The position numbers and the translations under genes were made by a program. Below, piece by piece: positions 6,012 through 36,938 of a stretch of 64,000 bases of DNA. Origin of the DNA: an uncultured cyanobacterium (GTDB lineage: Bacteria; Cyanobacteriota; Cyanobacteriia; Cyanobacteriales; CAWUOF01); the NCBI GenBank assembly GCA_963744145.1, contig CAVUSO010000001.1, positions 5,408,001 through 5,472,000 on the forward strand, written 5' to 3'. Numbering within the stretch: position 1 is the first letter of the stretch; every line of letters begins with the position of its first letter. The notes beneath the pieces are model-generated. The model searched no databases, had not been told where the DNA came from, and was given only the letters and a program-made list of their open reading frames with translations.

Positions 6012-6988
6012 CTAAATACTCATTGCTAACATCCGTTGAATGGGTTGTAGTGCTGCTAAACGGGTTTCTTCGGGAAGCGTAATTTCTGGAGTACGGTTTT
6101 TCATGGCTAAATAAAGCTTTTCCAGAGTATTCAGACGCATATGAGGACACTCATTACAACTACACTGGTTCATGGGTGGTGCGGGAATGAAGTGTTTCTC
6201 TGGTGCTTGTTTTTGCATTTGATGAATAATTCCGGGTTCAGTAGCAACAATAAAACTCGAACTGGAACTGGAGCAAGCATATTTTAAGAGTGCAGTAGTA
6301 GAACCAATATAGTCTGCATGACGTAATACTGGTGGCTCACATTCTGGATGAGCAATCACTTCAGCATCGGGATGGACAATTTTCAGCTCGACAATTTTCT
6401 GTTCGGAAAATGTTTCATGGACGATACAACTACCTTGCCATAACACCATCTCTCTACCAGTCTGCTCCATTACATATCTCCCTAAATTACGATCTGGAGC
6501 AAAAATAATTGGTTGATCAGCGGGAATTTGATTAACAATTTTGACCACATTAGAACTGGTGCAAATAATGTCACTGAGAGCTTTAATATCGGCAGTACAG
6601 TTGATATAAGAAATGACTAAATGATTGGGATGGGCAGCTTTAAAAGCTGCAAAAGCATCTTTGGGACAACTATCAGCGAGGGAACAACCAGCTTTTAGAT
6701 CGGTAAAAGTACCAGTTTATTCGGGTTGAGAATTTTGGCAGTTTCTGCCATAAAGTGGACACCCGCAAAGACAATCACATCCGCATCGGTGTTGGCTGCT
6801 TTACGGGAAAGCTCTAGAGAATCACCAATGTAGTCAGCCACATCTTGAATATCAGGATCTTGGTAATAATGGGCTAAAACCACGGCATTCAGCTTTTTTT
6901 TCTCTTCTTCAATGAGAGTAAACAGATCCTGGTGGACTGGAATTGTAGTTTTGAGACTATCTTCGGAACGGATTAGAGTGGTAAACAC
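6012..6988 (-). pseudogene. nadA: Quinolinate synthase A, split by a 1-nt frameshift near 6701
   Basis: The N-part (AHYYQ...[21 protein letters not shown]) and C-part ([12 protein letters not shown]...YINCTA...CIVHE...HPEC...CPHM) are contiguous but one base out of frame. Confidence 0.88.
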
Positions 6989-7181
6989 AGTTTAAAGTTT
7001 GAATAGGGTTATTTAAGATAATTATAGTTTTTTTTACCAAAATTTGCACTTAACTGAACTTGATCCTGAAAATTTTTCAGAATTTATATACAATTTGGAG
7101 AGAAAAATAGAATTTTCTACTGAAATATGGCTAAAACCCATATATAATAAAGATTTAAGCCTATTTCTATCCCTTTATTCT

Positions 7182-8150
7182 ATGCCTTATCTAGAAACTA
7201 CTGCCCAGTTTTACGCCCAAGCTGCTCAAACCCCTCAAATTGGACTTTGTTGTGCTAGCACTCCGCCACTCCAATTACCAGGGTTAAAGATTCCGAAAAT
7301 TATGCAGCAGATGAACTATGGCTGCGGCTCAACGGTGCATCCAACCGAGTTATTTGGAGAACCTACAATCCTATATATTGGCATTGGTGGAGGAATAGAA
7401 GCGCTTCAGTTTGCTTATTTTTCTCGTAAACCAGCAGGTGTGATTGCAGTTGAGCCGATTTCAGAAATGCGAACAGTAGCTGCCCACAATTTACAGATAG
7501 CTGCCGAAGATAACAATTGGTTTAATCCCGATTTTGTCAAAATTTTGGTAGGGGATGCCTTTACATTACCAGCACCAGATAACTCAGTGGATGTGGTAGC
7601 ACAAAACTGTTTGTTCAATATCTTTGAACCTGATGATCTGCAACGAGCCCTGCTTGAAGCTAATCGAGTGTTGAAACCTGGTGGAAGGTTAATTATGAGT
7701 GATCCGATCGCCACTCGTCCGATTCCACCAGAACTCCAGCAAGATGAACGGTTACGCGCTATGTGTTTATCCGGGGCACTTACTTATGATGAATATATCC
7801 AGCACCTAATTGCGATCGGGTTTGGGCAGATCGAGATTCGCGCTCGTCGTCCCTATCGTCTGTTAGATACCCACAATTACAATTTGGATACCCCCCTATT
7901 ACTGGAAAGTCTAGACTCCGTTTCTTTTAAAATACCTGTTCCAGAAGATGGAGCTTGCGTATTTACAGGTAAAACTGCCATTTATGCAGGTGCTGAATCC
8001 CTACTAAATGATCAGGCTGGACATTTACTACAACCGGGTATTCCTTTAGCAGTTTGTGACAAAACAGCAGCCAAACTTGCTCGGCAATTTCCACAAGATG
8101 TGATCATTACAGACTCCACTTGGCATTATCATGGTGGCGGATGCTGTTAA
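7182..8150 (+). CDS. arsM: ArsM-like SAM-dependent methyltransferase (cyanobacterial arsenite methyltransferase type)
   Basis: Begins MPYLETTAQFY..GLCC; contains NYGCG, NCLFN and the AMCLSGA cysteine; ends GGGCC. Start is probably 7182 rather than 7044. Confidence 0.8.
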   Translation: MPYLETTAQFYAQAAQTPQIGLCCASTPPLQLPGLKIPKIMQQMNYGCGSTVHPTELFGEPTILYIGIGGGIEALQFAYFSRKPAGVIAVEPISEMRTVAAHNLQIAAEDNNWFNPDFVKILVGDAFTLPAPDNSVDVVAQNCLFNIFEPDDLQRALLEANRVLKPGGRLIMSDPIATRPIPPELQQDERLRAMCLSGALTYDEYIQHLIAIGFGQIEIRARRPYRLLDTHNYNLDTPLLLESLDSVSFKIPVPEDGACVFTGKTAIYAGAESLLNDQAGHLLQPGIPLAVCDKTAAKLARQFPQDVIITDSTWHYHGGGCC

Positions 8151-8873: not shown

Positions 8874-9116
8874 TTATTGAGTGAAAGGCGATCGGGCATG
8901 ATCCATCTCGTCGATCGTTTTTGCTTCACGCCAAAATTTTAAACAACCTGCAACATCACTTAAGGTTGTTTCAGCAAAAGCTTTTTTTGGCTTGATTAAA
9001 ATTCCATCACCAGTATCAATCAAAAGTAATTCCTGACCCGCTTCCCAACCGTAAGCTTTCCCCAGAGATGGAGGAATAATCATTTGTCCTTGGTCTGATA
9101 CTCTGATTGTTTCCAT
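8874..9116 (-). CDS. AbrB/MazE/SpoVT family antitoxin (orphan)
   Basis: Pattern METIRVSDQGQMIIP...GWEAGQEL...DGILIKP. Confidence 0.85.
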   Translation of the reverse strand: METIRVSDQGQMIIPPSLGKAYGWEAGQELLLIDTGDGILIKPKKAFAETTLSDVAGCLKFWREAKTIDEMDHARSPFTQ

Positions 9117-9276
9117 ATTAAAATAAACTGCGATAAATTATGGGAGACTCAAGTTTAGTTTAACTTGGCTGGTAGTGAAATTGCTAGACTATGCCACTTG
9201 ATAGTCGTTGGTATTGCACCCTAATTAATTGAGCTAGGCGATCGCATCAAAAAGAAAATAAACAATCAATCCGATT

Positions 9277-9335
9277 GTAGGGGCAGGTTCACCGATCAAT
9301 TCTATCACAAACGAGTAATCATCATAAACCTGCCC
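9277..9335. repeat. REP-like imperfect palindrome (GTAGGGGCAGGTT...AACCTGCCC)
   Basis: Self-complementary ends; an inverted diverged copy lies at 40929-40987. Confidence 0.75.
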
Positions 9336-9591
9336 TCACCCACCGATAAATCCCAAACTACAGATCATCTTAGCAAACGCGATCGCACAGTTCAAAATTC
9401 AGGCGATCGCATAATTATAATTAGATTCATTACTAGGAACTTGCTGTTTTAATACCCACCGCTTTTTTATATTTTTGGACAAAATTTTATCCCATTTCAA
9501 GGTTAAGATAGTTTAATTAATGGGACAACTGGTGGCATAATTAAATTAACTAAATTAAAATAACAGATAAAAACTTTCCCTGGTACAGATA

Positions 9592-10008
9592 ATGGACCCA
9601 ATAACTGCTGGTGCGATCGCACTAATTACTCTGCTGGTCAACAAAACTTTTGAGAAAACGGGCGAAATAGTTGTAAGTAAAGCTTTTGACCAAGCAGGTA
9701 ATGTTCTCAACTTGCTCAAACACAAATCTCCCGAAACTGCCAAAATGATTGCAGCAGCAGAAAATCCTGCTTTACCTCCTGGTGAAACGGTATATATGGA
9801 TGCTGTGGTAGAAAAGGTACAATCAGAAGCCCAACGTGACCCGGAAATTAAGGCAGAGTTGGAAAAATTAGGGGCTATGATCGAAGCAGCGAAAAAGGTA
9901 GATCCGCAATTGGCTAATACTATTAATGAAAATTGGCAGGGGATATGTTTTAAAAATGCTAATCCTACTATTTCTAATAATACTTTTAATTTTGGTGGCA
10001 AAGGATGA
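9592..10008 (+). CDS. Small helical protein (Bell/HeLo-like effector candidate) with a C-terminal N/Q/G-rich motif
   Basis: Hydrophobic N-terminal helix MDPITAGAIALITLL and C-terminal NENWQGICFKNANPTISNNTFNFGG. ATGA overlap with the NLR gene. Confidence 0.7.
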   Translation: MDPITAGAIALITLLVNKTFEKTGEIVVSKAFDQAGNVLNLLKHKSPETAKMIAAAENPALPPGETVYMDAVVEKVQSEAQRDPEIKAELEKLGAMIEAAKKVDPQLANTINENWQGICFKNANPTISNNTFNFGGKG

Positions 10009-11620
10009 ATATTGAAAAAAATTGGCAGGGAATAAATTTTGAAGATGCCAATCCTAGTATTACGGGTAATCAATTTATCTTTAATAATCAAACACCTTCA
10101 ATTCCTGTTTATAATATTCCTTATACTGGTGTTCTTAATTTTGTAGGACGAAAAACGGAACTGCAAACACTGCAAGGGCAATTCCAGAAGTGTGATGGTG
10201 TAGTCATTTCTGCTGTGGCGGGGATGGGTGGTGTGGGCAAAACTGAATTGGCGATTAAATATGCACGCACCCATGAACAAGATTATCCTGGAGGGATTTG
10301 CTGGTTATCTGCTAGAGATGAGGGTTTAGCTAATAATATTTTACAATTTGCGCTGCTTGATCTGAAGTTGGAAGTGCCGCAAAAATTAGGCGAAAAACTG
10401 CTATCTCTTAAAGAACAGGTAAGCTGGTGTTGGCAGCATTGGCAACCATCGGCGGGGGCAGTTTTATTGGTGTTAGATGATGTTACTATTTGGAAAAGTT
10501 GTCGAGATTTTATTCCCAAAATTAATCGCTTTAAGATTTTAATTACTACCCGATTACGACATCTCGATAGCAATTTTCTTCAGTTATCGTTAGATGTATT
10601 TTCACCGGATGAAGCTTTAGAATTTTTGAGGAATTTGCTTGGGGAAAAGCGAGTAGCACAGGAACTGGAAATTGCTAAAGATTTATGTAAATGGCTGGGG
10701 TATCTGCCTTTGGGGTTGGAATTGGTAGGACGATATTTGGTGGAAGATCCTGATTTGTCTTTAATGAAAATGTGGGAGAGGTTAAGACAAAAACGGTTGG
10801 AAGATGAGGCAGTTAATCCTGGAGATGAAGATTTACAGGATACAGAAATGACAGCAAAGAGAGGAGTAAAAACTGCGTTTGAGTTAAGCTGGCAAGAATT
10901 GGATGTGATGACACAGCAATTAGGGGAATTGTTGAGTTTGTTTGCGCCAGCTATTATTCCTTGGAAATTATTAGTTGAATCTATAGCTAAATTGCTGAAT
11001 TGGAATGAGGCAGAGGTTGATAAAGGAAAAAAGGAACTTTATAAGCGATTTTTAATTAAGAGGTTAGCAGAAAGAGAGGCTTGTTATGAAATTCACCCTT
11101 TGATTAGGGAGTTTTTGAAAGCAAAGATAGATGAGTCTGAACTAGCACAAGATGTCAAACAGGCTTTTGTAGAAGTGATGGTAACAATGGCCAAGGAAAT
11201 TCCTGATTCAATCACGATAGATTTAATTGAGAAGTTAAAAGTTGTAATTCCTCATCTAGAAGAAGTAGCGGAAAACTTGATTGATATAGTTAGGGATGAA
11301 GATTTATATTGCGTTTTTTTAATGGGTTAGGTAGATTTTATCAAGGTCAAGGATTATATAATTTAGCAGAACCCTGGTTAGAACAGTCTTTAAGCAAAAT
11401 AAAAGCAAAGTTGGGCAACGACCATCCCGATGTGGCTGCCAGTTTGAACAATCTGGCATTACTCTACAACAACCAAGGGAGATACGCAGAAGCGGAACCG
11501 TTATTCCTTGACGCTTTAGTAATATGCGAAAATTGTTTAGGAAAAGATCATCCTGGTACTATTGATATTCGTCAAAATCTAGATATACTTAAAGAATATC
11601 TCAGCCAGAGTAAATATTAG
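10005..11620 (+). CDS. NB-ARC + TPR protein (bacterial NLR), frameshifted at T7 tract 11314-11320
   Basis: Walker A GMGGVGKT, Walker B VLDDV, ITTR and GYLPLGL. Kinesin-light-chain-type TPRs (HPDVAASLNNLALLYNNQGRYAEAEPL) are in the next frame (11309-11620). Confidence 0.85.
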
Positions 11621-11735
11621 CGATCGCCTGATCTATCTGAAAATGTTTAAAATCATCTTAATAACTCTGTTTCGCGATCGCATATTCCTTACTCGCTAGG
11701 GAAACTGTCAAACAAGGATTTACAGGCTGAAACCT
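11513..11735 (+). repeat. Direct repeat copy 1 (3' end of the TPR gene plus downstream DNA); copy 2 at 13844-14168
   Basis: Near-identical text, e.g. tagcgatcgcctgatctatctgaaaatgtttaaaatcatcttaataactc, occurs in both. Confidence 0.9.
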
Positions 11736-11878
11736 TCGATATCTTGCTTATTGATTGCCAAAAATTCTGTAAAACCTTTATCCAGCATAGCCTCAACCGG
11801 AAAAATTAATCCCTCTCCTGTAATCAACTCAATCTCAAAAAATAATTCCCCTTTGCTGCCAAACCTCCCCTCAATTAT
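11720..11878 (-). pseudogene. Truncated clan AA (retropepsin-like) aspartic protease
   Basis: Reads IIEGRFGSKGELFFEIELITGEGLIFPVEAMLDKGFTEFLAIN. ATA stands where ATG is expected, the catalytic DTG appears as DKG, and it stops after about 52 aa. Confidence 0.65.
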
Positions 11879-12192
11879 ATTCTACCAGTTGCCCCTGATT
11901 CATTCAAACAAAACATACAGTGGATAGTGTTTGGGTGTTTTTGCTGTGCCTTTTGGCTGGCTATTTCCTGATCAGAATCAATAAAATAATCCCCACTATT
12001 GGGTTCAACTGCAATATACCAGCCATAGTGTTTCTCAATTAGTTCAGGAGATACTTGCTCAAAAATTTTTCGACAACGCTGATGAAAAGCTTCTCTCTCG
12101 GCTTTATGTCTAGCTTTTTCTGCGGGTGACCATTGAATTTCTGGAAAAATTCTGCCTCGACGGACAATTCTCTGGGGAGTAGATTGGGTCAT
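11875..12192 (-). CDS. Hypothetical protein of the type paired with clan AA aspartic proteases
   Basis: YGWYIAVEPNSGDYFID...GATGRI; coupled to the protease remnant. Confidence 0.7.
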   Translation of the reverse strand: MTQSTPQRIVRRGRIFPEIQWSPAEKARHKAEREAFHQRCRKIFEQVSPELIEKHYGWYIAVEPNSGDYFIDSDQEIASQKAQQKHPNTIHCMFCLNESGATGRI

Positions 12193-12499
12193 AATTCGCT
12201 CTAAATACTCATTTTTGTCTATTTGGGATTTCAGCCAAAAGATAGTCAGAAACTAATTCAAATTTGTTTGCTGATTACACTATAATTATAGCAGATTTTT
12301 GTGATAAAATTTATACCAGCTAAGGCTAATTCGGTAAAAATCTTCTTCATGGTAACTGTAAAGTTGCAAAGTTATTTATCCCAAAAATGCAACAACTATG
12401 CTATAATAAAATTAGTTGATTAAACAAAACGTCAAACTTATTATTCTGGACTAGCATTAATTACCCCTCAAAAAATCGATCAAGGAGGGTCGATTTGTC

Positions 12500-12820
12500 A
12501 TGATAGAAACAGAAAAAATTCTGCAAATTAGTCGGGCTATTGCTAGGGAATTTAAGCCAAACAAAATTATTTTATTTGGTTCATACGCTTATGGGAATCC
12601 TCAAGATGACTCAGATGTTGATTTATTAGTCATTTTGCCGTACAAGGGGAGTAATTTTCAGAAAAGTTGGGAAATTTTAAATAAAATTCAACCGAATTTT
12701 GCTCTAGATTTGTTAGTGCGAACTCCTGGAGATGTGGAGCAACGTCTCGCCTGGAATGATTTTTTTCTGCGGGAAATCATTGAAAAAGGAAAAGTGATTT
12801 ATGAATCCGCTAACAGTTGA
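12500..12820 (+). CDS. Minimal nucleotidyltransferase (MNT) antitoxin
   Basis: LFGSYAYG...DSDVDLLV motif. Confidence 0.9.
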   Translation: MIETEKILQISRAIAREFKPNKIILFGSYAYGNPQDDSDVDLLVILPYKGSNFQKSWEILNKIQPNFALDLLVRTPGDVEQRLAWNDFFLREIIEKGKVIYESANS

Positions 12821-12983
12821 ATGGGTTGATAAAGCTGAGGGGGATTTTATTACAGCTTTGCGGGAGTTACGAGCCAGGAAATCTCCCAACTATGATGCGG
12901 CATCTTTTCACGCTCAACAGTGTGTTGAGAAATATTTGAAAGCGCATTTGCAAGAATCTGGAATTGCTTTCAGTAAAACATAG
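12801..12983 (+). pseudogene. HEPN-domain toxin, truncated at 60 aa
   Basis: EWVDKAEGD...FHAQQCVEKYLKA, then TAG where KTH is expected. It is followed by a 24-bp repeat (12994-13017) also found at 41240-41263. Confidence 0.8.
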
Positions 12984-13046
12984 CTGTATGGCATTCATAA
13001 ACCTGGAATAGGCTGTAAACTGTCAAGAAGTAATAGGAAAAATATA

Positions 13047-13331
13047 ATGCAAGCATATAAACTCAAAGGAAAAATAGATCCATCTGGTAATTTAGTGATT
13101 ACCGAAACCGTAAATTTACCCCCTGGAGATGTGGAAGTGATAGTCTGGCAAACTACTGAGATGTTTGATAACACTACAACTTCAGCAAGTGAACTACGAT
13201 CAGAAACACCAAAGAGAAAATCTAGGGTAAAAGCATTTGAGGGTTTATTTGAAAATGCTCCACCCATCCCACCAAACTTTGATCCAGACCTAGCTAAATG
13301 GGAATATTTAAAAGAGAAACATAAGCTGTGA
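13047..13331 (+). CDS. Probable antitoxin of the downstream PIN toxin
   Basis: 94 aa ending AKWEYLKEKH; GTGA overlap with the PIN gene. Confidence 0.7.
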   Translation: MQAYKLKGKIDPSGNLVITETVNLPPGDVEVIVWQTTEMFDNTTTSASELRSETPKRKSRVKAFEGLFENAPPIPPNFDPDLAKWEYLKEKHKL

Positions 13332-13747
13332 AAATCTTGCTAGATACTAATATAGTTGTTGATGATGCCCTGGAAAGACAGCCTTTTTGGGATGCAAGCG
13401 AGCAAGTTTTATCCCTGATTGAACAAAGACAAATTGAAAGTTATATTTCAGCTTCAACTTTTAGTGATTTGTATTACATCATCCGTAGAGCAAGAGGTAA
13501 AGATTGGACGTTTACTTATTTAAACCAGTTAGTTACCTTTTGCCGAATTGCTACTGTAAATCAGGCAGTAATTACAATGGCTATCACCGCAAATTTTAGT
13601 GATTTTGAAGATGCCATTCAATACGCCACTGCTGTATTAAATCAATTAGATGTGATTATTACCCGTAATCCTAAAGACTTCTCTGTTGTTCAACCGCGAA
13701 TTCTTACTCCTCAGCAATTAATTGAGGAATTAAAAAATTCTTGTTGA
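13328..13747 (+). CDS. PIN domain toxin (VapC-like)
   Basis: LLDTNIVVD...DFEDAIQ...TRNPKDF. Confidence 0.9.
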   Translation: MKILLDTNIVVDDALERQPFWDASEQVLSLIEQRQIESYISASTFSDLYYIIRRARGKDWTFTYLNQLVTFCRIATVNQAVITMAITANFSDFEDAIQYATAVLNQLDVIITRNPKDFSVVQPRILTPQQLIEELKNSC

Positions 13748-13843
13748 GTGATTTCAACAATGAAAAAATCGAATAATTTTCAAACTTTCAATCCCGCGAT
13801 CGCAACACCCAAGAAAATATATTTATTACTGTTATATCTTGAG

Positions 13844-14168
13844 GCTTTAGTAATATGCGAAAGGGCGTTGCTGATTTACGGTATGAATAAAGAATTTGTA
13901 GGGGTGTATGGCTTTTGAGCCCAGGGCGCATAGCCATGCGCCCCTACAGAATTTTCATACCCTGATTAAGCAACGCCAGATCATCCTAATACTATTGTTA
14001 TTCGTGAAAATCTAAATATACTTAAAGAATCTCTCAGCCAGAGTAAAGATTAGCGATCGCCTGATCTATCTGAAAATGTTTAAAATCATCTTAATAACTC
14101 TCTTTCGCGATCGCATATTCCCTACTCGCTAGGGAAACTGTCAAATAAGGATTTACAGGCTGAAACCT
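13844..14168 (+). repeat. Direct repeat copy 2 of 11513-11735, interrupted by a MITE
   Basis: Colinear with copy 1 apart from the insertion at 13864-13977. Confidence 0.9.
13864..13977. mobile_element. MITE-like element with ~24-bp imperfect TIRs and an internal REP hairpin
   Basis: Ends GGCGTTGCTGATTTACGGTATGAA and TTCATACCCTGATTAAGCAACGCC; inner TGTAGGGG...CCCCTACA. Absent from the paralogous copy, where about 12 bp occupy the site. Confidence 0.8.
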
Positions 14169-14353
14169 ACTTATAATTCGCTCTAAATACTCATTTTTAT
14201 CTATGATTTTAGCTCGGAATTGACAAGCGATCGCGGTGCTGATGACACTAAATGCTACTCTAAATATAGACAGGATATTTAATATTAATAATTCTGGCGT
14301 GATGTTTAAATTACATTTTCGCTCATTAGGTTGATTGGGCAAGGGTGAAAATA

Positions 14354-14701
14354 TTACAAAGGTAAGTATTGAACTTGGTTGATTAAATCTTCAGGGTCAC
14401 TTACTTTCGCAAGTATTTCTAAGTCGCGCACACAATCGCCAACGGTTACATACTGTTGATGCGCGTAGATAACCCCACTAAAATTTATTCCCTCTTGCTG
14501 GTGATGATTTGCCATGACTAAAAAATCATCATCTTGGGTAAAAATAACCCGCTGAAGTTCCGTAGCACGATCAAGTAAAATCGGATCAGGTGTGCCAGTT
14601 CTGCCATCTTCTTGTACGGTGAGAACGTCTATCCCTCGCAATTTTAAACCATTTGTAATAGCTCGGCGGACATGTTCATCGATGTACAGAGCTAGGGTCA
14701 T
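14354..14701 (-). CDS. DUF5615 family PIN-like toxin
   Basis: LYIDEHV...GIDVLTV...FTQDDDF. Confidence 0.85.
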   Translation of the reverse strand: MTLALYIDEHVRRAITNGLKLRGIDVLTVQEDGRTGTPDPILLDRATELQRVIFTQDDDFLVMANHHQQEGINFSGVIYAHQQYVTVGDCVRDLEILAKVSDPEDLINQVQYLPL

Positions 14702-15015
14702 TTAATTAGCCCTTGGATGCGAAGTTTTTTAACTAAAGCAGATTCACCAGTTTGTTGACGTAACTTTTCAACCTGCTCGAATCGTTGCTGCATATCGGCA
14801 TCTAGTTCTTCTTTGTTATCCCAATAATAAGCTAAGGCAGAATAAATTTGACTCATGCTTAAATAGGGGTGTTGAAATTTAATTTCTTCGGGACTCCAGC
14901 CAAAACTAAGATGACCGGAAACTAATTCAATTACTTTCATCGTTGTTCCGGCGATGTAGGGAACTTTGTTTTCATCCAGTTCTATATATTTGTGTTGAGT
15001 AGCAGTCAAGTTCAT
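14698..15015 (-). CDS. DUF433 family antitoxin
   Basis: PYIAGTTMKV...GWSPEEI...QIYSALAYY. Probable start MNLTAT at 15015. Confidence 0.85.
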   Translation of the reverse strand: MNLTATQHKYIELDENKVPYIAGTTMKVIELVSGHLSFGWSPEEIKFQHPYLSMSQIYSALAYYWDNKEELDADMQQRFEQVEKLRQQTGESALVKKLRIQGLIK

Positions 15016-15115
15016 CAAATTTGCCTTGTTGCTGATTACACTATAATTATAGCAGATTTTTGTGATTCGGCTGATAAAGATACGGTGAGCGATTGAATCC
15101 GGTTGATTAATTCTG

Positions 15116-15490
15116 TTAACCTTGCCCGTTGCCTTGGTTTCTCTGTTGAAGTTGTAAATATTCCCAGATGCGTCTAATCTCGGCTCGATCTTCTGCACTA
15201 CGTTCTGCTAATTCCGTATTGCGTTGTGCTAGTTCGCGATCGTGTTGTGCTAATTCGATATTGCGTTGTGCCAATTCCAACATAAATCCGGACAAGTTGG
15301 TAACAGTAGCCGTCAATTGCCGTTGGCTCTCGAAGAGAGAATCTACCTTATCAGTAATAACCGAAAATTCTCCCTGAAGTGCGAGGATTTCATCAAGCAA
15401 GATATTCGTTCTTTTCCCAAATTCGGTCTCGTCCTGACTAACTCGTTCTCTTAACGCTGTTATTTGTTCTTGTAGTGAATTGGTTTCCAT
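15116..15490 (-). CDS. Hypothetical coiled-coil protein
   Basis: Heptad repeats ELAQRNI/ELAQHDR/ELAQRNT; ends EIRRIWEYL. Confidence 0.6.
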   Translation of the reverse strand: METNSLQEQITALRERVSQDETEFGKRTNILLDEILALQGEFSVITDKVDSLFESQRQLTATVTNLSGFMLELAQRNIELAQHDRELAQRNTELAERSAEDRAEIRRIWEYLQLQQRNQGNGQG

Positions 15491-15642
15491 CTTGCTTTAG
15501 TTGATTTGGCTCAATCTTATTATAGCTGTCTGTTATATCAGTGGGTTGTCCTAGTTTTCCGGCGATCGCTGCTACCCAGATCGGAAATGTAGCTATTGTC
15601 CTAGGTCCACGCTGCGCGATTACCTACGGTATACTAAGTGAA

Positions 15643-15670
15643 GTAGGGGCGTATTGCAATACGCCCCTAC
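15643..15670. repeat. REP hairpin GTAGGGGCGTATTGCAATACGCCCCTAC
   Basis: Perfect palindrome beginning GTAG. Confidence 0.85.
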
Positions 15671-15685
15671 GGTTTCTGATATCTA

Positions 15686-16246
15686 TTAGTCCTCAAAAAT
15701 CGCATCAACACTAATCACTATGTCCGGAAATGAAAGAGGTGAGATACTTTCACCGCGTCTAAATTGTTGGATACTTTCATAACCATTAGCTCCGGGATTA
15801 CGATAAACCTCAACTAATTCAGCCCGTACATCTACGATCCAAAGTTCAATAATCCCAGCTCTCCCATAGAGAACTGACTTCACATTGCGATCGTTGTCGA
15901 TGGTCGTATCTGCTACTTCGATCAATAAATATACGTCTTGGGGTTGGGGGTGTAACTTTCGGTATGAACGACGTTTCAAGATTGATACATCAGGTTGGGG
16001 TTCTAATCCCCCGTTTAGCCTGACTGGAGTTTGTGACAAGATTGAAATACGTTTACCCAAAGCGTCATAGAATAGTTCATACAAGCAACCAATACAGCCT
16101 GCATGACGACTACCCATCGGTGCCATAAGAATTATATCCCCATCAATTAGTTCAGTCCGTTCATCAGGTCCAATTATCCCAACTTCCCCCAGCTTGTAAT
16201 ATTCCTCCACAGTAAATTTCTTTCGCTCTGTTGCTACTACAGACAT
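15686..16246 (-). CDS. Uma2 family endonuclease-like protein
   Basis: FTVEEYY...ELIDG...EPQPD...LIEVAD. Confidence 0.9.
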   Translation of the reverse strand: MSVVATERKKFTVEEYYKLGEVGIIGPDERTELIDGDIILMAPMGSRHAGCIGCLYELFYDALGKRISILSQTPVRLNGGLEPQPDVSILKRRSYRKLHPQPQDVYLLIEVADTTIDNDRNVKSVLYGRAGIIELWIVDVRAELVEVYRNPGANGYESIQQFRRGESISPLSFPDIVISVDAIFED

Positions 16247-16447
16247 AATCCTTATCCTATTGCTTGAATGGGGTCTATCTAACAATTAGATTTTACTCTG
16301 ATGGCTTTCTTCGTAGGCTGATTGTCCCGTAGGCGATCCAGTTCCCAGTCGCATATTTGGGATTGACTCAACTCTTCTCTGTAATGTTCAGATGTTGGTT
16401 AAAACTCACAGGAACCACAGCATCGATCGCATCTTTCGACTTGAGAA

Positions 16448-33726: not shown

Positions 33727-35511
33727 TCAATCCAAATCTATTTTGGCAAAGTGGTCTTGCAAATACTTATGTATAAAGCGATAGCGACCACCAATACGTT
33801 GCAATAAAAGACGTTCGGTGCAGTAGTTGAGCAGAAGATCATAGCGCAAGGGCACATAGTGATTCCAGGCAAGGATAAAACGCAGAGCAATGTGTTGTAT
33901 TAATGCTTGCCCACCACCTGCCTGAAAACATAAAAAAATTAAAATAGCTATAGAAGTCGCAATTAATATAGGGATAACTTGAGGATTAACGATACTGATA
34001 TTCGTGAGTATATGTTCTAAGAGGACCTTAAGGGGTATTGCTAACACCACGGCAATTAGAGTTAATACTACCATATTTTTCAGTGAGTTTTTGATGCCCT
34101 GATTAGGCTCAATCCTAGTTTGGATATCAGTTTTTAGCCCATGAATCAGCCCATGAATCAGCCCAAGAACCAGCCCAAAACCCAGCCCAAAACCCAGCCC
34201 AAAACTCAGCCCAAAACCCAGCCCATGAATCAGCCCAAGAACCAGCCCAAAACCCAGCCCAAAACTCAGCCCAAAACCCAGCCCGTAAGCAAGTGATCGT
34301 AAAATTTCTCGTCCTACTTTGTAGGACATTGAAATTGAAATTACTTCTACTGGCTCAATTTTCCCACCAACCAGACCACCAGCCAGCCCACCAGCCAGCC
34401 CAATAACCAGCCCAATAACCAGCCCAATAACCAGCAAACCAACCAGCAGACCAACCAGCCCAATAACCAGCCCAACAACGAGTTTATATGCCAATTTTTG
34501 CCGCCGAATAATAAGTTCGGTTGGCTGCATTTTTTCGATTAATAATTCCGTGCTAGATTCGCGAGAAAGCATCTTAGCGGTAAAAATAAGCGATCGCTTG
34601 ACTTGTTTATTTGATGGCAGTAACTTAGTACCATAAGTTTTGCTGCGAACACCTCGCCTTTTTTCATTAGGGTCAATAATCAATTCACGAGTAATAGTTG
34701 TTTCCCAATAAGTATTGAGCAAATATTCAATTCTTGTCTCGGAATCAATACGCGATCGCCAAGATTCAAGAGAAAACTTTCCTTGTGTCTGCACCAAACC
34801 AAACATAGATAAAAACAGAGGCGTTTTCAGCATCGCCTGCAAAGCTTCATCTTGCTGCACCGTTTGCCATACATCCTGCAACTGAAACTGAGTAAAATAT
34901 TCTTTAATTTGCTCAATAGTTAATGCTTGCAAATAAATCGCCCCATACAGATTCAGACGCTGCCGCACCGCATTCTCAAACTCTTCTCGCCGACAACAAA
35001 CTAACACACCGCAAGGTTGCTGCTCAATATCCCCCGTCAACCAAATATTAAGCATTTTTGCACAATCTTCTTGATACTGGGTTGCTACCTCATCCAACCC
35101 ATCCAGCATAGGTAAAAGTTGATTTTCCTTTAGCCATTGCTTTGCCAAATCCTGACCAATCCCATATTTTTCCTTCAACTCACCCAACAACCACTCATAA
35201 ATTGATTGCTGCGGATCTTTCCAAGAGGACAAACTAAGTAAAACTGGGATTGGCTCGATTTTATCTTTTATCGCTCTTTGCAACAAATCCTGTGCCAATT
35301 CCAGCATCATCGTAGTTTTACCAGAACCTGGTTCACCCAGAATTAGCAATTTACGCTCAATTTCTGGGCGATCGAATACCTCTACAATTCGAGTTCCAGC
35401 ATCCAAGGGTACTGCTAACTGGGATGCTTGCGCGATCGTTGCTGACCAAGGACGTTGGATGCGATAGTCTTGCTGTTCCATTCCCAGAATCAGCCATACT
35501 GCATTGTGCAA
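33727..35511 (-). CDS. NACHT NTPase with C-terminal GLxxGL transmembrane repeats; frame stays open upstream to 35706 with no ATG
   Basis: GEPGSGKT, LDGLDE, LLQRIGGRYRFIH and Gly/Leu-rich TM repeats. Confidence 0.88.
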   Translation of the reverse strand: MHNAVWLILGMEQQDYRIQRPWSATIAQASQLAVPLDAGTRIVEVFDRPEIERKLLILGEPGSGKTTMMLELAQDLLQRAIKDKIEPIPVLLSLSSWKDPQQSIYEWLLGELKEKYGIGQDLAKQWLKENQLLPMLDGLDEVATQYQEDCAKMLNIWLTGDIEQQPCGVLVCCRREEFENAVRQRLNLYGAIYLQALTIEQIKEYFTQFQLQDVWQTVQQDEALQAMLKTPLFLSMFGLVQTQGKFSLESWRSRIDSETRIEYLLNTYWETTITRELIIDPNEKRRGVRSKTYGTKLLPSNKQVKRSLIFTAKMLSRESSTELLIEKMQPTELIIRRQKLAYKLVVGLVIGLVGLLVGLLVIGLVIGLVIGLAGGLAGGLVGGKIEPVEVISISMSYKVGREILRSLAYGLGFGLSFGLGFGLVLGLIHGLGFGLSFGLGFGLGFGLVLGLIHGLIHGLKTDIQTRIEPNQGIKNSLKNMVVLTLIAVVLAIPLKVLLEHILTNISIVNPQVIPILIATSIAILIFLCFQAGGGQALIQHIALRFILAWNHYVPLRYDLLLNYCTERLLLQRIGGRYRFIHKYLQDHFAKIDLD

Positions 35512-35541
35512 CGACTGTGATAACCGCTCCTTTATCTCTGT

Positions 35542-35667
35542 TTTTACTGTTAGTAACAGTTTTTCTTGGGATGGTTCTCGTTTAGCTTTTAGTGGTTTTG
35601 GATCTTTTACTGTTAGTAACAGTTTTTCTTGGGATGGTTCTCGTTTAGCTTTTAGTGGTTTTGGATC
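35542..35667 (-). repeat. In-frame 63-bp tandem duplication (DPKPLKAKREPSQEKLLLTVK x2)
   Basis: ttttactgttagtaacagtttttcttgggatggttctcgtttagcttttagtggttttggatc occurs twice. Confidence 0.9.
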
Positions 35668-35684
35668 AGGTTGAGAATTGCAGG

Positions 35685-36176
35685 TTAAGACTTTTTTGCT
35701 AGTGCCTTAGACCACTTTATAAAAGTTGGGAAATGCGATCGCAAAAAGTTCTCTGTGTCCAGCTCTGCTTCATAGGACACATTAACAAACGGTGGTAGTA
35801 GAGACAGTGCCCCCTTTAACTTAGCAGCCGCAGGTGTTTCCGGTTTACTCACTTCAGCATAAATTTTCTGTAGCCATTCCAAGACTTCATCAGAATATTG
35901 CTGACTCGTTTGCAGTTGTCCCACTTGTTCTACAATCTCAGCAACAACAACTTCTGGTGCTGGATCTAGTATCGTGGTTGTCGCGGGTTCATCCGCCAAA
36001 ATTTGCCAATATTCTCTTTCAAACGGTTGCATCTCTTTTTTCAAATCCTTAATCTGCTGCTTAATCCGAGCCCGTTCTTCGGGAGCAATCGTTATTAATG
36101 TATCTTCTTTTCCTGCCAATTGGTCACGCAAACGGGTCAAATTTCTTTCAAGTTGGCGCAAGCGATCGCTGGACAT
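35685..36176 (-). CDS. Hypothetical helical protein; possible N-terminal part of a frameshift fusion with the NACHT ORF
   Basis: 163 aa, ending GCA AAA AAG TCT TAA. Confidence 0.75.
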   Translation of the reverse strand: MSSDRLRQLERNLTRLRDQLAGKEDTLITIAPEERARIKQQIKDLKKEMQPFEREYWQILADEPATTTILDPAPEVVVAEIVEQVGQLQTSQQYSDEVLEWLQKIYAEVSKPETPAAAKLKGALSLLPPFVNVSYEAELDTENFLRSHFPTFIKWSKALAKKS

Positions 36177-36344: not shown

Positions 36345-36938
36345 ATGTCTACCTTAATTCAAAACTTAACTGAAAACCCACCAGAGAAAAAAAATTGGAC
36401 TGATGACGAATTCATGACCCTGAGTCGAGATGGACATCGCTACGAAATTGTCAATGGCAAACTAATGGATATGGGAAACTCTGGCGCAAAACACGGTTAT
36501 ATTGCCATTATTTTAAGTGCTGCTTTGTTTAATTTTGTATCAACCAGAAAATTAGGAGTCTTGCTGGACTCTAGCACTGCATTTAAGATGAAATCAGGAA
36601 ATAAGCGATCGCCCGATATTTCCTTTGTGGATAAAAAACATTTACAAGGAATAGACGATCTCCCCAATGATTTTCTCGAAGGTGCCCCTGATCTGGCGAT
36701 AGAAATCCTGTCTCCTAGCAATACAGTGGCAGAAATACATGACAAACTGGTGGAATATTTTGAGAATGGGGCACGTTTAGTGTGGGTAATCCATCCTCAA
36801 GAACATTATGTTTTGGTTTATCGTTCTAGATTGGGACCCGATCGTCTGCTCAAGTCTACCGACTCCCTCAATGGTGAAGAAGTAATCCCTGATTTCACTT
36901 TCCCGATCGCGGATCTGTTTCAAAAACTCGCTTTTTAA
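36345..36938 (+). CDS. Uma2 family endonuclease-like protein
   Basis: RYEIVNG, RSPDISF, APDLAIEILSP. Confidence 0.9.
   Translation: MSTLIQNLTENPPEKKNWTDDEFMTLSRDGHRYEIVNGKLMDMGNSGAKHGYIAIILSAALFNFVSTRKLGVLLDSSTAFKMKSGNKRSPDISFVDKKHLQGIDDLPNDFLEGAPDLAIEILSPSNTVAEIHDKLVEYFENGARLVWVIHPQEHYVLVYRSRLGPDRLLKSTDSLNGEEVIPDFTFPIADLFQKLAF

What the first reader, a model, noticed from the sequence alone, without database searches (positions are those of the whole stretch)
9592..11620. Effector-NLR gene pair sharing a candidate amyloid signalling motif
Seen in the sequence: the last ~25 aa of the 138-aa protein (ENWQGICFKNANPTISNNTFNFGG, ~9928-9999) align without gaps to the first ~25 aa of the ATGA-coupled NB-ARC-TPR protein (KNWQGINFEDANPSITGNQFIFNN, ~10017-10088). 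The consensus is NWQGIxFxxANPxIxxNxFxF. The DNA has diverged at many positions while these residues are kept. Established knowledge: fungal HET-S/NWD2 and bacterial Bell-domain/NLR (BASS) systems have this layout, an effector with a C-terminal motif plus an adjacent NLR with the same motif at its N-terminus, and signal by amyloid templating. Inference: this is a cyanobacterial prion-like cell-death or anti-phage module. I do not recognise the motif as RHIM or a described BASS family, so it may be a new motif family.
Basis: partly seen in the sequence, partly recalled or inferred. Interest (0 to 1): 0.92.

Follow-up and report, generated by a model that had tools for sequence, protein, structure and literature searches.

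The report
Known cyanobacterial amyloid-signalling gene pair (BASS7)
This is a small helical "executioner" gene followed by a sensor (NLR) gene that carry the same short amyloid-type tag, a layout and a tag family (BASS7) already described in cyanobacteria, so it is a further example and not a new motif family.

Summary
The core observation holds. A 138-aa ORF (9592-10008) ends with NENWQGICFKNANPTISNNTFNFG. The ATGA-overlapping NB-ARC ORF (10005-11330) begins with EKNWQGINFEDANPSITGNQFIFN. They share 13 of 24 residues without gaps, and 0 of 5000 shuffles reach the score.

The motif is not new. It is BASS7 of Dyrka et al. 2020. A published BASS7 instance is 22/25 identical to the effector tag. 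A profile of 50 homologue motifs hits only these two places among 1266 six-frame pieces.

Homologous effector domains carry other tags, and their neighbours carry the matching tag: 6 of 6 adjacent two-copy loci match, and 4 of 4 cross-family controls do not.

Caveats:
- The NLR is split by a frame change at a T7 run, which may be an assembly error, since nadA in the window is also frameshifted.
- The effector has Cys at a nearly invariant Asn.
- The fold search was uninformative.
- BASS7 itself has not been tested experimentally in the papers I read.

Verdict: a new member of a known kind, of low to moderate interest.

By-product: six plasmid relatives have a single tag copy, with effector and NLR in one frame separated by TGA. 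Four fused homologues have Trp at that position. This is a candidate leaky stop.

The parts
9592..10008 (+). Effector gene, 138 aa: a Bell-like all-helical domain (about residues 1-110) plus a C-terminal BASS7 tag
   Evidence: ORF. There are 67 homologues, all cyanobacterial where named. The AlphaFold2 model has six helices, mean pLDDT 70 and pTM 0.64, with residues 120-138 disordered. The N-terminus MDPITAGAIALITLLV has an acidic residue at position 2 followed by a hydrophobic helix. No Pfam, PADLOC or NCBIfam family covers the domain.
9925..9996 (+). Effector-side BASS7 motif NENWQGICFKNANPTISNNTFNFG (residues 112-135)
   Evidence: It scores 42.3 bits (E 3.4e-12) against a profile of 50 non-redundant homologue motifs. 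It is 22/25 identical to published BASS7 instance C12_s007. NCBIfam TIGR03804 (parallel beta-helix repeat) hits residues 109-133 at 20.7 bits against a cut-off of 19.45. It has Cys where 57 of 58 homologue motifs have Asn.
10005..11330 (+). NLR gene, first frame: N-terminal BASS7 tag, linker, NB-ARC (Walker A GMGGVGKT) and helical DUF7779-like region; 441 aa; start overlaps the effector stop (ATGA)
   Evidence: ORF. Pfam NB-ARC 7.4e-15 and DUF7779 3.3e-5, the latter below its cut-off. 1925 homologues at E <= 1e-20, the best 64-71% identical, from Argonema and Aerosakkonema.
10014..10085 (+). NLR-side BASS7 motif EKNWQGINFEDANPSITGNQFIFN (residues 4-27)
   Evidence: It scores 22.7 bits (E 4.7e-6) against the same profile; the next best of 1266 six-frame pieces scores 5.4 bits. 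It is 15/21 identical to published NLR-side instance C12_s012.
11314..11320 (+). T7 run where the NLR reading frame changes
   Evidence: Sequence. tblastn of P0069, P0072 and P0090 switches frame here. There is no significant RNA structure downstream (z -0.65; 52 of 200 shuffles fold as well).
11309..11620 (+). TPR sensor part of the NLR, 103 aa, in another frame
   Evidence: Pfam TPR_12 4.1e-28 and TPR_10 8.2e-25. It aligns to the TPR region of full-length homologues.

Best explanation
This is a two-gene Bell/NLR amyloid-signalling module of the published BASS7 family, sitting among toxin-antitoxin-type genes in a cyanobacterial chromosome.

Shown here:
- A small helical protein carries a C-terminal BASS7 tag.
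- A translationally coupled NB-ARC/TPR STAND ATPase carries the same tag at its N-terminus.
- Both tags fit the family profile.
- Relatives elsewhere keep effector and partner tags matched even when the tag family differs.

Inferred by analogy with HET-S/NWD2, with BASS1 and BASS3, and with Bab/Agp:
1. The TPR part senses an unknown trigger.
2. The NB-ARC module oligomerises and brings the N-terminal tags together into a cross-beta nucleus.
3. The nucleus templates the tag of the effector.
4. The helical domain then exposes its N-terminal hydrophobic helix and damages the membrane, killing the cell. This would be abortive infection or another regulated cell death.

Whether this particular copy is active depends on whether the T7 frame change is real.

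The confidence of 0.7 is for the whole statement. Membership of the BASS7 Bell/NLR kind alone I put at about 0.95, the amyloid-templating mechanism at about 0.65, and activity of this copy at about 0.5.
For: - Architecture and overlap.
- Tag match beyond chance: 0 of 5000 shuffles.
- Identity with the published BASS7 set. The README maps C12 to BASS7. C12_s007 is 22/25 identical and C12_s012 is 15/21 identical. The N-termini of NLR homologues P0199 and P0200 are identical, over the 25 and 23 residues shown, to C12_s010 and C12_s011.
- The profile of 50 homologue motifs finds only the two tags among 1266 six-frame pieces.
- 22 of 66 effector homologues and 36 of 199 NLR-type homologues carry the tag at the expected end.
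- Matched tags in 6 of 6 adjacent two-copy loci (window, L001, L003, L010, L011, L012), where 0 to 11 of 1000 shuffles reach the score. They also match in 5 of 5 pairs inferred from the same organism or contig length. 4 of 4 cross-family controls are unmatched.
- The effector domains of these loci form one family (hhalign probability 99.3%, E 3.6e-20, 95 columns).
- The helical model has a disordered tag.
- Literature: BASS1 and BASS3 behave as prions and form fibrils, and the NLR-side tag converts the Bell-side tag (preprint 10.1101/2020.01.06.895854, sections read). Bab/Agp (BASS11) gives T5 resistance by amyloid-triggered cell death (preprint 10.1101/2024.11.07.622273, abstract and introduction).
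Against: - The NLR is interrupted by a frame change at 11314-11320. If this is real, the sensor is detached.
- The effector tag has Cys at a position that is Asn in 57 of 58 homologue tags.
- The within-pair DNA comparison shows only 2 synonymous changes, so it cannot by itself exclude recent copying.
- The fold search against the PDB gave no match at E <= 0.001 (best E 0.89, TM <= 0.36). The profile search of PDB sequences gave nothing below E 0.37. Likeness to HeLo, MLKL or Bab is therefore not shown.
- No PADLOC model matches the effector or the NB-ARC part.
- In the papers read, BASS7 was not tested. [quoted passage not shown]
- Promoter-like sites are at chance level (9 found against 8.7 expected) and there is no terminator-like site.
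Confidence: 0.7

Rival explanations
1. It is a decaying relic. The pair is a genuine BASS7 Bell/NLR module by descent, but this copy is no longer functional because the NLR lost its frame and the effector tag lost a key Asn.
For: - Frame change at the T7 run.
- Cys in place of the Asn that 57 of 58 homologue tags keep.
- A neighbouring HEPN ORF is truncated at 60 aa, covering profile positions 3-53 of 117.
- A plasmid relative, L005, has its partner position occupied by transposase-like ORFs, so such pairs do decay.
Against: - Both ORF parts are otherwise open. The NB-ARC part is 63% identical to P0069 over 447 columns, with no further stops.
- nadA, a housekeeping gene, is also frameshifted in this window. 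This points to single-base assembly errors and not to real decay.
- The joined length of about 540 aa lies within the range of the listed homologues, 327-768 aa.
Confidence: 0.2
2. The shared tag is an ordinary, non-amyloid docking element, for example one rung of a beta-helix that pairs with its counterpart. It holds effector and NLR together and does not template a prion-like fold.
For: - NCBIfam TIGR03804 (parallel beta-helix repeat) matches the effector tag just above its cut-off, 20.7 bits against 19.45.
- No experiment on BASS7 was found. A full-text search for 'BASS7' returned one relevant paper, which is computational.
Against: - The composition and layout are those of motifs that did form amyloid when tested: BASS1, BASS3 and BASS11.
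- A beta-helix rung is also what a beta-solenoid amyloid such as HET-s looks like, so the NCBIfam hit fits both readings.
- The tag is disordered in the monomer model.
Confidence: 0.08
3. It is a neutral local duplication. A 70-base stretch was copied across the gene boundary and means nothing.
For: The DNA of the two copies is 69% identical, and 11 of the 13 conserved residues use the same codon.
Against: - The same tag sits at the same two protein ends in many genomes: 22 effector-side and 36 NLR-side instances.
- Pairs with other tag families show the same matching.
- The profile built without the window's proteins recognises both copies.
Confidence: 0.02

Closest known systems
BASS7 Bell/NLR gene pairs of cyanobacteria (Dyrka et al. 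2020, bioRxiv 10.1101/2020.01.06.895854; motif set in the supplement of PMC8086366)
   Same: - The tag has the same consensus, ENWQGIN[IF]K..N.TI..NTFNF.
- The tag lies at the C-terminus of a short helical protein and at the N-terminus of an adjacent collinear NB-ARC/TPR protein.
- The genes overlap by 4 bp. The paper reports that 42% of pairs overlap.
- The host is a cyanobacterium.
   Different: - This copy belongs to the INFK[ND][AS]NP sub-variant, not the commoner INIKGG one.
- It has Cys for the conserved Asn on the effector side.
- Its NLR frame is interrupted.
- I could not see the paper's Table S2 (bioRxiv supplements are closed), so I cannot say whether this very pair is already listed.
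HET-S / NWD2 of Podospora anserina (HRAM motif)
   Same: An adjacent NLR with an N-terminal amyloid motif and a pore-forming effector with the same motif at its C-terminus. The NLR templates the effector (as summarised).
   Different: - Fungal, and a NACHT/WD NLR, not NB-ARC/TPR.
- The effector motif is a two-fold pseudorepeat, whereas here there is a single copy.
- The HeLo domain is not detectably similar in sequence or in the fold search.
Bab/Agp of E. coli ECOR25 (BASS11; bioRxiv 10.1101/2024.11.07.622273)
   Same: A small Bell-related helical effector with a C-terminal amyloid tag, and an adjacent sensor with the same tag at its N-terminus. It is shown to give abortive-infection defence against phage T5.
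   Different: [quoted passage not shown] The tag family differs. No sequence match to solved structures was found with the effector profile.
RHIM / BASS3
   Same: A short amyloid tag shared by signalling partners.
   Different: The sequence differs. No RHIM or HET-s family appears in the Pfam scan of the effector or NLR at E <= 1.

Membership tests
BASS7 amyloid signalling motif (Dyrka et al. 2020) | The sequence fits the family's motif set | tested here: met
   C12_s007 is 22/25 identical to the effector tag, and C12_s012 is 15/21 identical to the NLR tag (counted by eye). The README maps C12 to BASS7. A profile of 50 homologue motifs scores 42.3 and 22.7 bits, and the next best in the window scores 5.4. 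The authors' own pHMM was not available.
BASS7 amyloid signalling motif (Dyrka et al. 2020) | The motif lies at the C-terminus of a short (<200 aa) Bell-type protein and at the N-terminus of an NB-ARC or NACHT protein encoded within 5 kb | tested here: met
   The tag is at residues 112-135 of 138 and at residues 4-27 of the NB-ARC protein. The genes overlap by 4 bp on the same strand.
BASS7 amyloid signalling motif (Dyrka et al. 2020) | Cyanobacterial host (the preprint describes BASS7-10 as cyanobacteria-specific) | tested here: met
   66 HIP1 octamers in 64 kb at 39.5% G+C. Reading HIP1 as a cyanobacterial marker is recalled knowledge. Every homologue that carries an organism name is cyanobacterial.
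BASS7 amyloid signalling motif (Dyrka et al. 2020) | Forms amyloid, and the NLR-side tag converts the effector-side tag | not testable with these tools
   In the preprint only BASS1 and BASS3 were tested. No BASS7 experiment was found.
Bell domain | A helical domain of about 100 aa with an N-terminal hydrophobic helix and an acidic residue at position 2 or 3 | tested here: met
   The N-terminus is M-D-P-ITAGAIALITLLV. 23 of 23 aligned homologues also have E or D at position 2, or position 3 in P0062. The model has helices 3-16, 26-45, 47-57, 66-82, 84-103 and 105-121.
Bell domain | Sequence homology to the founding Bell proteins (HMMER from ONI86675.1) | not tested
Indirect link: P0067 (Nostoc sp. 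106C) is a homologue of the window effector (E 5.7e-13). By organism and contig length it is the partner of P0200, whose N-terminus equals the published BASS7 instance C12_s011.
Bell domain | Fold related to HeLo, MLKL, CC or Bab executioner domains | tested here: inconclusive
   Foldseek against the PDB gave 0 matches at E <= 0.001. The best hit is Mcl-1 at E 0.89, and MLKL 6zvo is at rank 45 with E 2.8 and TM 0.18. The model has only pLDDT 70. An Atlas lead to PF20701 (carried by 20-26% of cluster members) was not borne out: 0 of 24 family members hit it in Pfam at E <= 1.
STAND NLR (NB-ARC + TPR) | NB-ARC NTPase with a Walker A motif, followed by TPR repeats | tested here: met
   Pfam NB-ARC 7.4e-15, with GMGGVGKT at residue 73. 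TPR_12 4.1e-28.
STAND NLR (NB-ARC + TPR) | One uninterrupted reading frame | tested here: not met
   The frame changes at the T7 run 11314-11320. This may be an assembly error, because nadA is also frameshifted.
RHIM / BASS3, HET-s HRAM | Match to the Pfam RHIM or HET-s prion-domain models | tested here: not met
   Neither family is listed for the effector or the NLR at E <= 1.

The most novel reading that the evidence does not exclude
The family to which this pair belongs appears to keep receptor and effector tags matched in two ways.

The window shows the known way: two tag copies in two overlapping genes.

Six plasmid relatives (L002, L006, L007, L016, L018, L020) show a way I did not find described. 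There is a single tag copy, and the effector and NLR lie in one reading frame separated only by TGA. The codon after TGA is CTA in five loci and GTG in one.

- Four fused single-ORF homologues have Trp at exactly that codon.
- In three of the loci no ATG, GTG or TTG lies between the TGA and the Walker A motif.
- The post-TGA frames stay open for 367-1053 codons under purifying selection (dN/dS 0.16-0.31).

My reading is that this is a leaky UGA, read as Trp. It would give much free effector-tag protein and a little effector-tag-NLR fusion, so receptor and effector would carry the identical tag by construction. This concerns related loci, not the window itself.
Probability: 0.4. Interest if true: 0.75.

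Novelty: new member of a known kind. Interest (0 to 1): 0.3.

Why it matters
For the window itself, this adds one more chromosomal example of a described but still experimentally untested tag family, BASS7. It shows that the INFK[ND][AS]NP and INIKGG sub-variants are matched within pairs in 5 of 5 inferred pairs, which is too few for a test of association. This hints at insulation between paralogous modules.

It is a reasonable candidate for the first wet-lab test of BASS7 and of a cyanobacterial Bell/NLR pair, whose biological role is still open according to the 2024 preprint.

The by-product, an in-frame TGA that alternates with Trp at the effector-tag/NLR junction in relatives, would matter more. 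It would be a case of programmed stop-codon readthrough in bacterial immunity, and a simple answer to how prion-like signalling partners stay sequence-matched.

Tried and rejected
- New motif family: rejected.
- Neutral duplication: rejected.
- Fold assignment of the effector by Foldseek against the PDB and by a profile against PDB sequences: nothing significant.
- Atlas lead to PF20701: not confirmed, 0 of 24 members.
- PADLOC: no model for the effector or the NB-ARC part, and only a weak TPR hit.
- Programmed -1 frameshift at the T7 run. The run formally fits a slippery heptamer in frame, but there is no downstream structure beyond chance (z -0.65) and a housekeeping gene is also frameshifted. 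I judge it unlikely.
- Second Bell/NLR-like pair in the window (163-aa ORF 35688-36176 upstream of NACHT ORF 33730-35511): no shared tag, 337 of 1000 shuffles score as well.
With hindsight an alignment query would have reached further. I used plasmid records for genomic context instead.
Adjacency of five protein pairs therefore rests only on shared organism name or contig length. For the Oculatellaceae pair the two lengths differ (349517 against 349106).
- Complex prediction was not used, because an amyloid templating contact is not what it tests.
- A literature search for the motif letters (NWQG and similar) returned only unrelated papers.
Full report
**1. What is in the sequence**

ORF 9592..10008 (+, 138 aa) ends ...NTINENWQGICFKNANPTISNNTFNFGGKG. 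ORF 10005..11330 (+, 441 aa) starts MNIEKNWQGINFEDANPSITGNQFIFNN at the ATG of an ATGA overlap with the first ORF's stop.

- The best local alignment has 14 identities in 27 columns and a BLOSUM62 score of 80. 5000 shuffles of the NLR N-terminus give mean 24, sd 5 and max 61, and none reaches 80.
- No third copy exists in any of the six frames of the window.
- Pfam finds NB-ARC (E 7.4e-15, residues 50-267) in the second ORF. It finds TPR_12 and TPR_10 (E 4e-28 and 8e-25) in a third ORF, 11309..11620, which lies in a different frame.
- Homologues P0069, P0072 and P0090 align through the NB-ARC frame up to about 11321, then continue in the other frame from 11318. The NLR is therefore interrupted by a frame change inside or next to the T7 run 11314-11320.

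**2.

The two 72-base tag-coding stretches are 69% identical (50 of 72). Of the 13 conserved residues, 11 use the same codon and 2 differ synonymously. The other 11 codons differ non-synonymously. This single comparison does not show purifying selection, so the case rests on other genomes.

**3. The motif is BASS7**

Dyrka et al. (bioRxiv 10.1101/2020.01.06.895854; I read the outline, all of section 16, parts 1-2 of the Results, and passages found by term search) defined ten bacterial amyloid signalling sequence families. [quoted passage not shown] BASS7-10 are cyanobacteria-specific. The logos are in a figure that is not held.

The supplement of the follow-up paper PMC8086366 lists the training sequences, and its README maps 'C12 == BASS7'.

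- C12_s007 (...NENWQGINFKNANPTISGNTFNFGK) is identical to the effector tag at 22 of 25 positions.
- C12_s012 (MSNENWQGINFKDSNPIIQGNNFNF...) is identical to the NLR tag at 15 of 21 positions (counted by eye).
- The N-termini of two NLR homologues retrieved here, P0199 (Calothrix sp. 336/3) and P0200 (Nostoc sp. 106C), equal C12_s010 and C12_s011 over the 25 and 23 residues printed.

I did not feed the supplement sequences to any tool. I built a profile from tags found here's homologues, leaving out the window's own proteins. That gave 22 effector-side tags among 66 effector homologues and 36 NLR-side tags among 199 NLR-type proteins, 50 of them non-redundant. Against all 1266 six-frame pieces of the window, the profile hits the effector C-terminus (42.3 bits, E 3.4e-12) and the NLR N-terminus (22.7 bits, E 4.7e-6). 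The next best piece scores 5.4 bits. The claim of a new motif family is therefore refuted.

**4. Do homologous pairs keep matched tags?**

The effector has 67 homologues. The alignment of 24 of them shows a conserved helical domain joined to at least three different C-terminal tags. For loci with DNA context I compared the last 45 residues of each effector with the first 100 residues of its neighbour, using 1000 shuffles each.

| Locus | Shuffles reaching the score (of 1000) |
|---|---|
| window | 0 |
| L001 Limnofasciculus (another tag, NACHT-type partner) | 0 |
| L010, L011 Acaryochloris (BASS9-like tag) | 0 and 0 |
| L012 Acaryochloris (BASS9-like tag) | 1 |
| L003 Anabaena cylindrica (partner is not an NLR) | 11 |

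- That makes 6 of 6 two-copy loci matched.
- Four cross-family controls are unmatched (405-665 of 1000).
All match, with 0 of 1000 shuffles reaching the score.
- In the four of these pairs that carry the NW.GI core, and in the window pair, the sub-variant agrees within the pair: INFK..NP with INF[KE]D..[PA], and INIKGG with IN[IL]KGG. That is 5 of 5, too few for a test.
- The effector domains of the window family and of the Acaryochloris and Nostoc plasmid loci are one family by profile-profile comparison (99.3%, E 3.6e-20, 95 columns). That second alignment includes three members close to the first family.
- Loci without a matched partner also exist. In L004 the effector-like protein has no NLR beside it. 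In L005 the partner position holds transposase-like ORFs.

**5. The effector domain**

No Pfam, NCBIfam or PADLOC family covers it.

- The AlphaFold2 model built from the 24-sequence alignment has six helices, mean pLDDT 70 and pTM 0.64, with the tag (residues 120-138) disordered.
- The N-terminus, M-D-P followed by a 14-residue hydrophobic stretch, fits the Bell signature as the preprint describes it.
- Foldseek against the PDB gave nothing at E <= 0.001. The family profile against PDB sequences gave nothing below E 0.37. Relatedness to HeLo, MLKL or Bab is therefore not shown here.
- NCBIfam's parallel beta-helix repeat model hits the tag just above its cut-off. That agrees with a beta-solenoid-like rung, but it is not proof of amyloid.

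**6. State of this copy**

There are two deviations. The first is the frame change in the NLR. The second is Cys in GIC, where 57 of 58 homologue tags have Asn.

The window's nadA is also split by a single-base frame change: Pfam NadA positions 3-73 and 126-295 fall in two ORFs, and the reading continues in another frame at ...[15 protein letters not shown]. nadA is a housekeeping gene. Single-base assembly errors are thus a likely cause, and the NLR may be intact in the organism. RNA folding downstream of the T7 run is unremarkable, so I give little weight to programmed frameshifting.

**7. Context**

The pair sits among small toxin-antitoxin-type and nuclease genes:
- a MazE/AbrB-like gene at 8874-9116;
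- a nucleotidyltransferase at 12500-12820 with a truncated HEPN at 12801-12983;
- a PIN gene at 13328-13747;
- DUF5615/DUF433 at 14354-15198;
- Uma2 at 15686-16285.

A methyltransferase lies upstream at 7044-8150. Promoter-like sites are at chance level and no terminator-like site was found.

**8. Mechanism**

The steps from trigger sensing to membrane damage are inferred from three sources. The first is HET-S/NWD2. The second is the BASS1 and BASS3 experiments, which showed prion behaviour in Podospora, conversion of the Bell side by the NLR side, and fibrils. The third is Bab/Agp. None of these steps is shown for BASS7.

**9. By-product in related loci**

Among 18 plasmid loci with an NB-ARC gene that I scanned, six have only one tag copy. 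The effector ORF (133-175 aa) ends in TGA and the NLR continues in the same frame with no spacer and no tag of its own.

| Locus | Sequence from the TGA |
|---|---|
| L002 | TGA CTA CAG TCG CCC |
| L006, L007 | TGA CTA GAG TCG CCT |
| L016 | TGA CTA GAG TCG TCC |
| L018 | TGA GTG GAG TCG TCC |
| L020 | TGA CTA CCT ACG CCC |

- No second tag copy is present downstream in the three loci tested, L002, L006 and L020 (229-646 of 1000 shuffles score as well).
- In L006, L007 and L016 the first ATG, GTG or TTG after the TGA is the Met codon inside the Walker A motif.
- A search with L002 read through (TGA=X, residues 1-200) found single-ORF fused homologues. Four of them carry Trp exactly at the TGA position: P0188 ...QEFWLYSPERERV, P0189 ...TLNFWLQSPEERV, P0190 ...TINFWLQAPERERV, and P0212 ...TFNIWLDTPERVRV.
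- The post-TGA frames are open for 684, 759, 843, 1053, 835 and 367 codons. Among the Acaryochloris copies dN/dS is 0.16-0.31 at dS 0.36-1.9. The NLR parts are therefore under purifying selection.
- A 5-bp hairpin 8 bases after the TGA is conserved. It has one compensatory pair type, but it overlaps conserved codons, so this is weak evidence.
- The Dyrka preprint has no occurrence of 'readthrough', 'stop codon' or 'in-frame'. A full-text search for readthrough + NB-ARC + cyanobacteri returned 0 papers. The journal version and the supplements were not seen.
- That UGA is the leakiest bacterial stop, and that near-cognate Trp-tRNA reads it, is recalled knowledge and comes from no call.
- The rival reading is recurrent or inherited nonsense mutation of all-in-one NLRs, with initiation at a non-canonical codon.

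**10. Verdict**

The pair is a further member of the described BASS7 Bell/NLR kind.

Noticed in passing
L002:5397-5411, L006:2594-2608, L007:2594-2608, L016:2459-2473, L018:2441-2455, L020:2462-2476 (plasmid relatives): These loci have a one-copy architecture. The effector with its C-terminal tag ends in TGA, and the NB-ARC/TPR frame continues in the same frame with no spacer (TGA CTA in five loci, TGA GTG in one). Four fused homologues (P0188, P0189, P0190, P0212) have Trp at that codon. The post-TGA frames are open for 367-1053 codons with dN/dS 0.16-0.31. This is a candidate leaky UGA.
   Followed up: partly
window 6015-6988, minus strand: nadA (quinolinate synthase) is split into two ORFs by a single-base frame change near 6690 (Pfam NadA positions 3-73 and 126-295). 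This suggests indel errors in the assembly, or a real pseudogene of a housekeeping gene.
   Followed up: partly
window 12801-12983: The HEPN ORF next to a nucleotidyltransferase gene (12500-12820) stops after 60 aa, covering profile positions 3-53 of 117. It appears to be a truncated toxin-antitoxin-type pair.
   Followed up: partly
window 33730-35511 (minus strand) and 35512-35687: A NACHT protein of 594 aa has a C-terminal half made of G-L-x-hydrophobic repeats that look membrane-spanning. The upstream intergenic stretch holds a roughly 70-base tandem duplication. It shares no tag with the upstream 163-aa ORF.
   Followed up: partly
window 8874-16285: A cluster of small toxin-antitoxin or nuclease-type genes surrounds the pair: MazE/AbrB-like, NTase/HEPN, PIN, DUF5615/DUF433 and Uma2. 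Two more Uma2 genes lie at 296-877 and 36345-36935.
   Followed up: no
L003:5001-6704 (Anabaena cylindrica PCC 7122 pANACY.03): A homologous effector shares its tag (...KIG....G..SI.N) with the N-terminus of an adjacent 418-aa protein that is annotated as hypothetical and has no NLR domain annotation. A dTMP kinase gene follows.
   Followed up: no
L013:2390-5253 (Nostoc sp. C057 p057_J); L014, L015, L017 (Acaryochloris): Other effector types lie beside related NLRs. In L013 a CHAT protein downstream has an N-terminus (...NTQVGGSLTVGNIIQN) that resembles the NLR N-terminus (...NVQVGGDLTTGDINQI). In L014, L015 and L017 a TIR-domain gene lies upstream of the NLR.
   Followed up: no
window 9925-9996: The BASS7 tag of the effector passes the NCBIfam parallel beta-helix repeat model TIGR03804 (20.7 bits against a cut-off of 19.45). 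The tag therefore reads like a single beta-helix rung.
   Followed up: no
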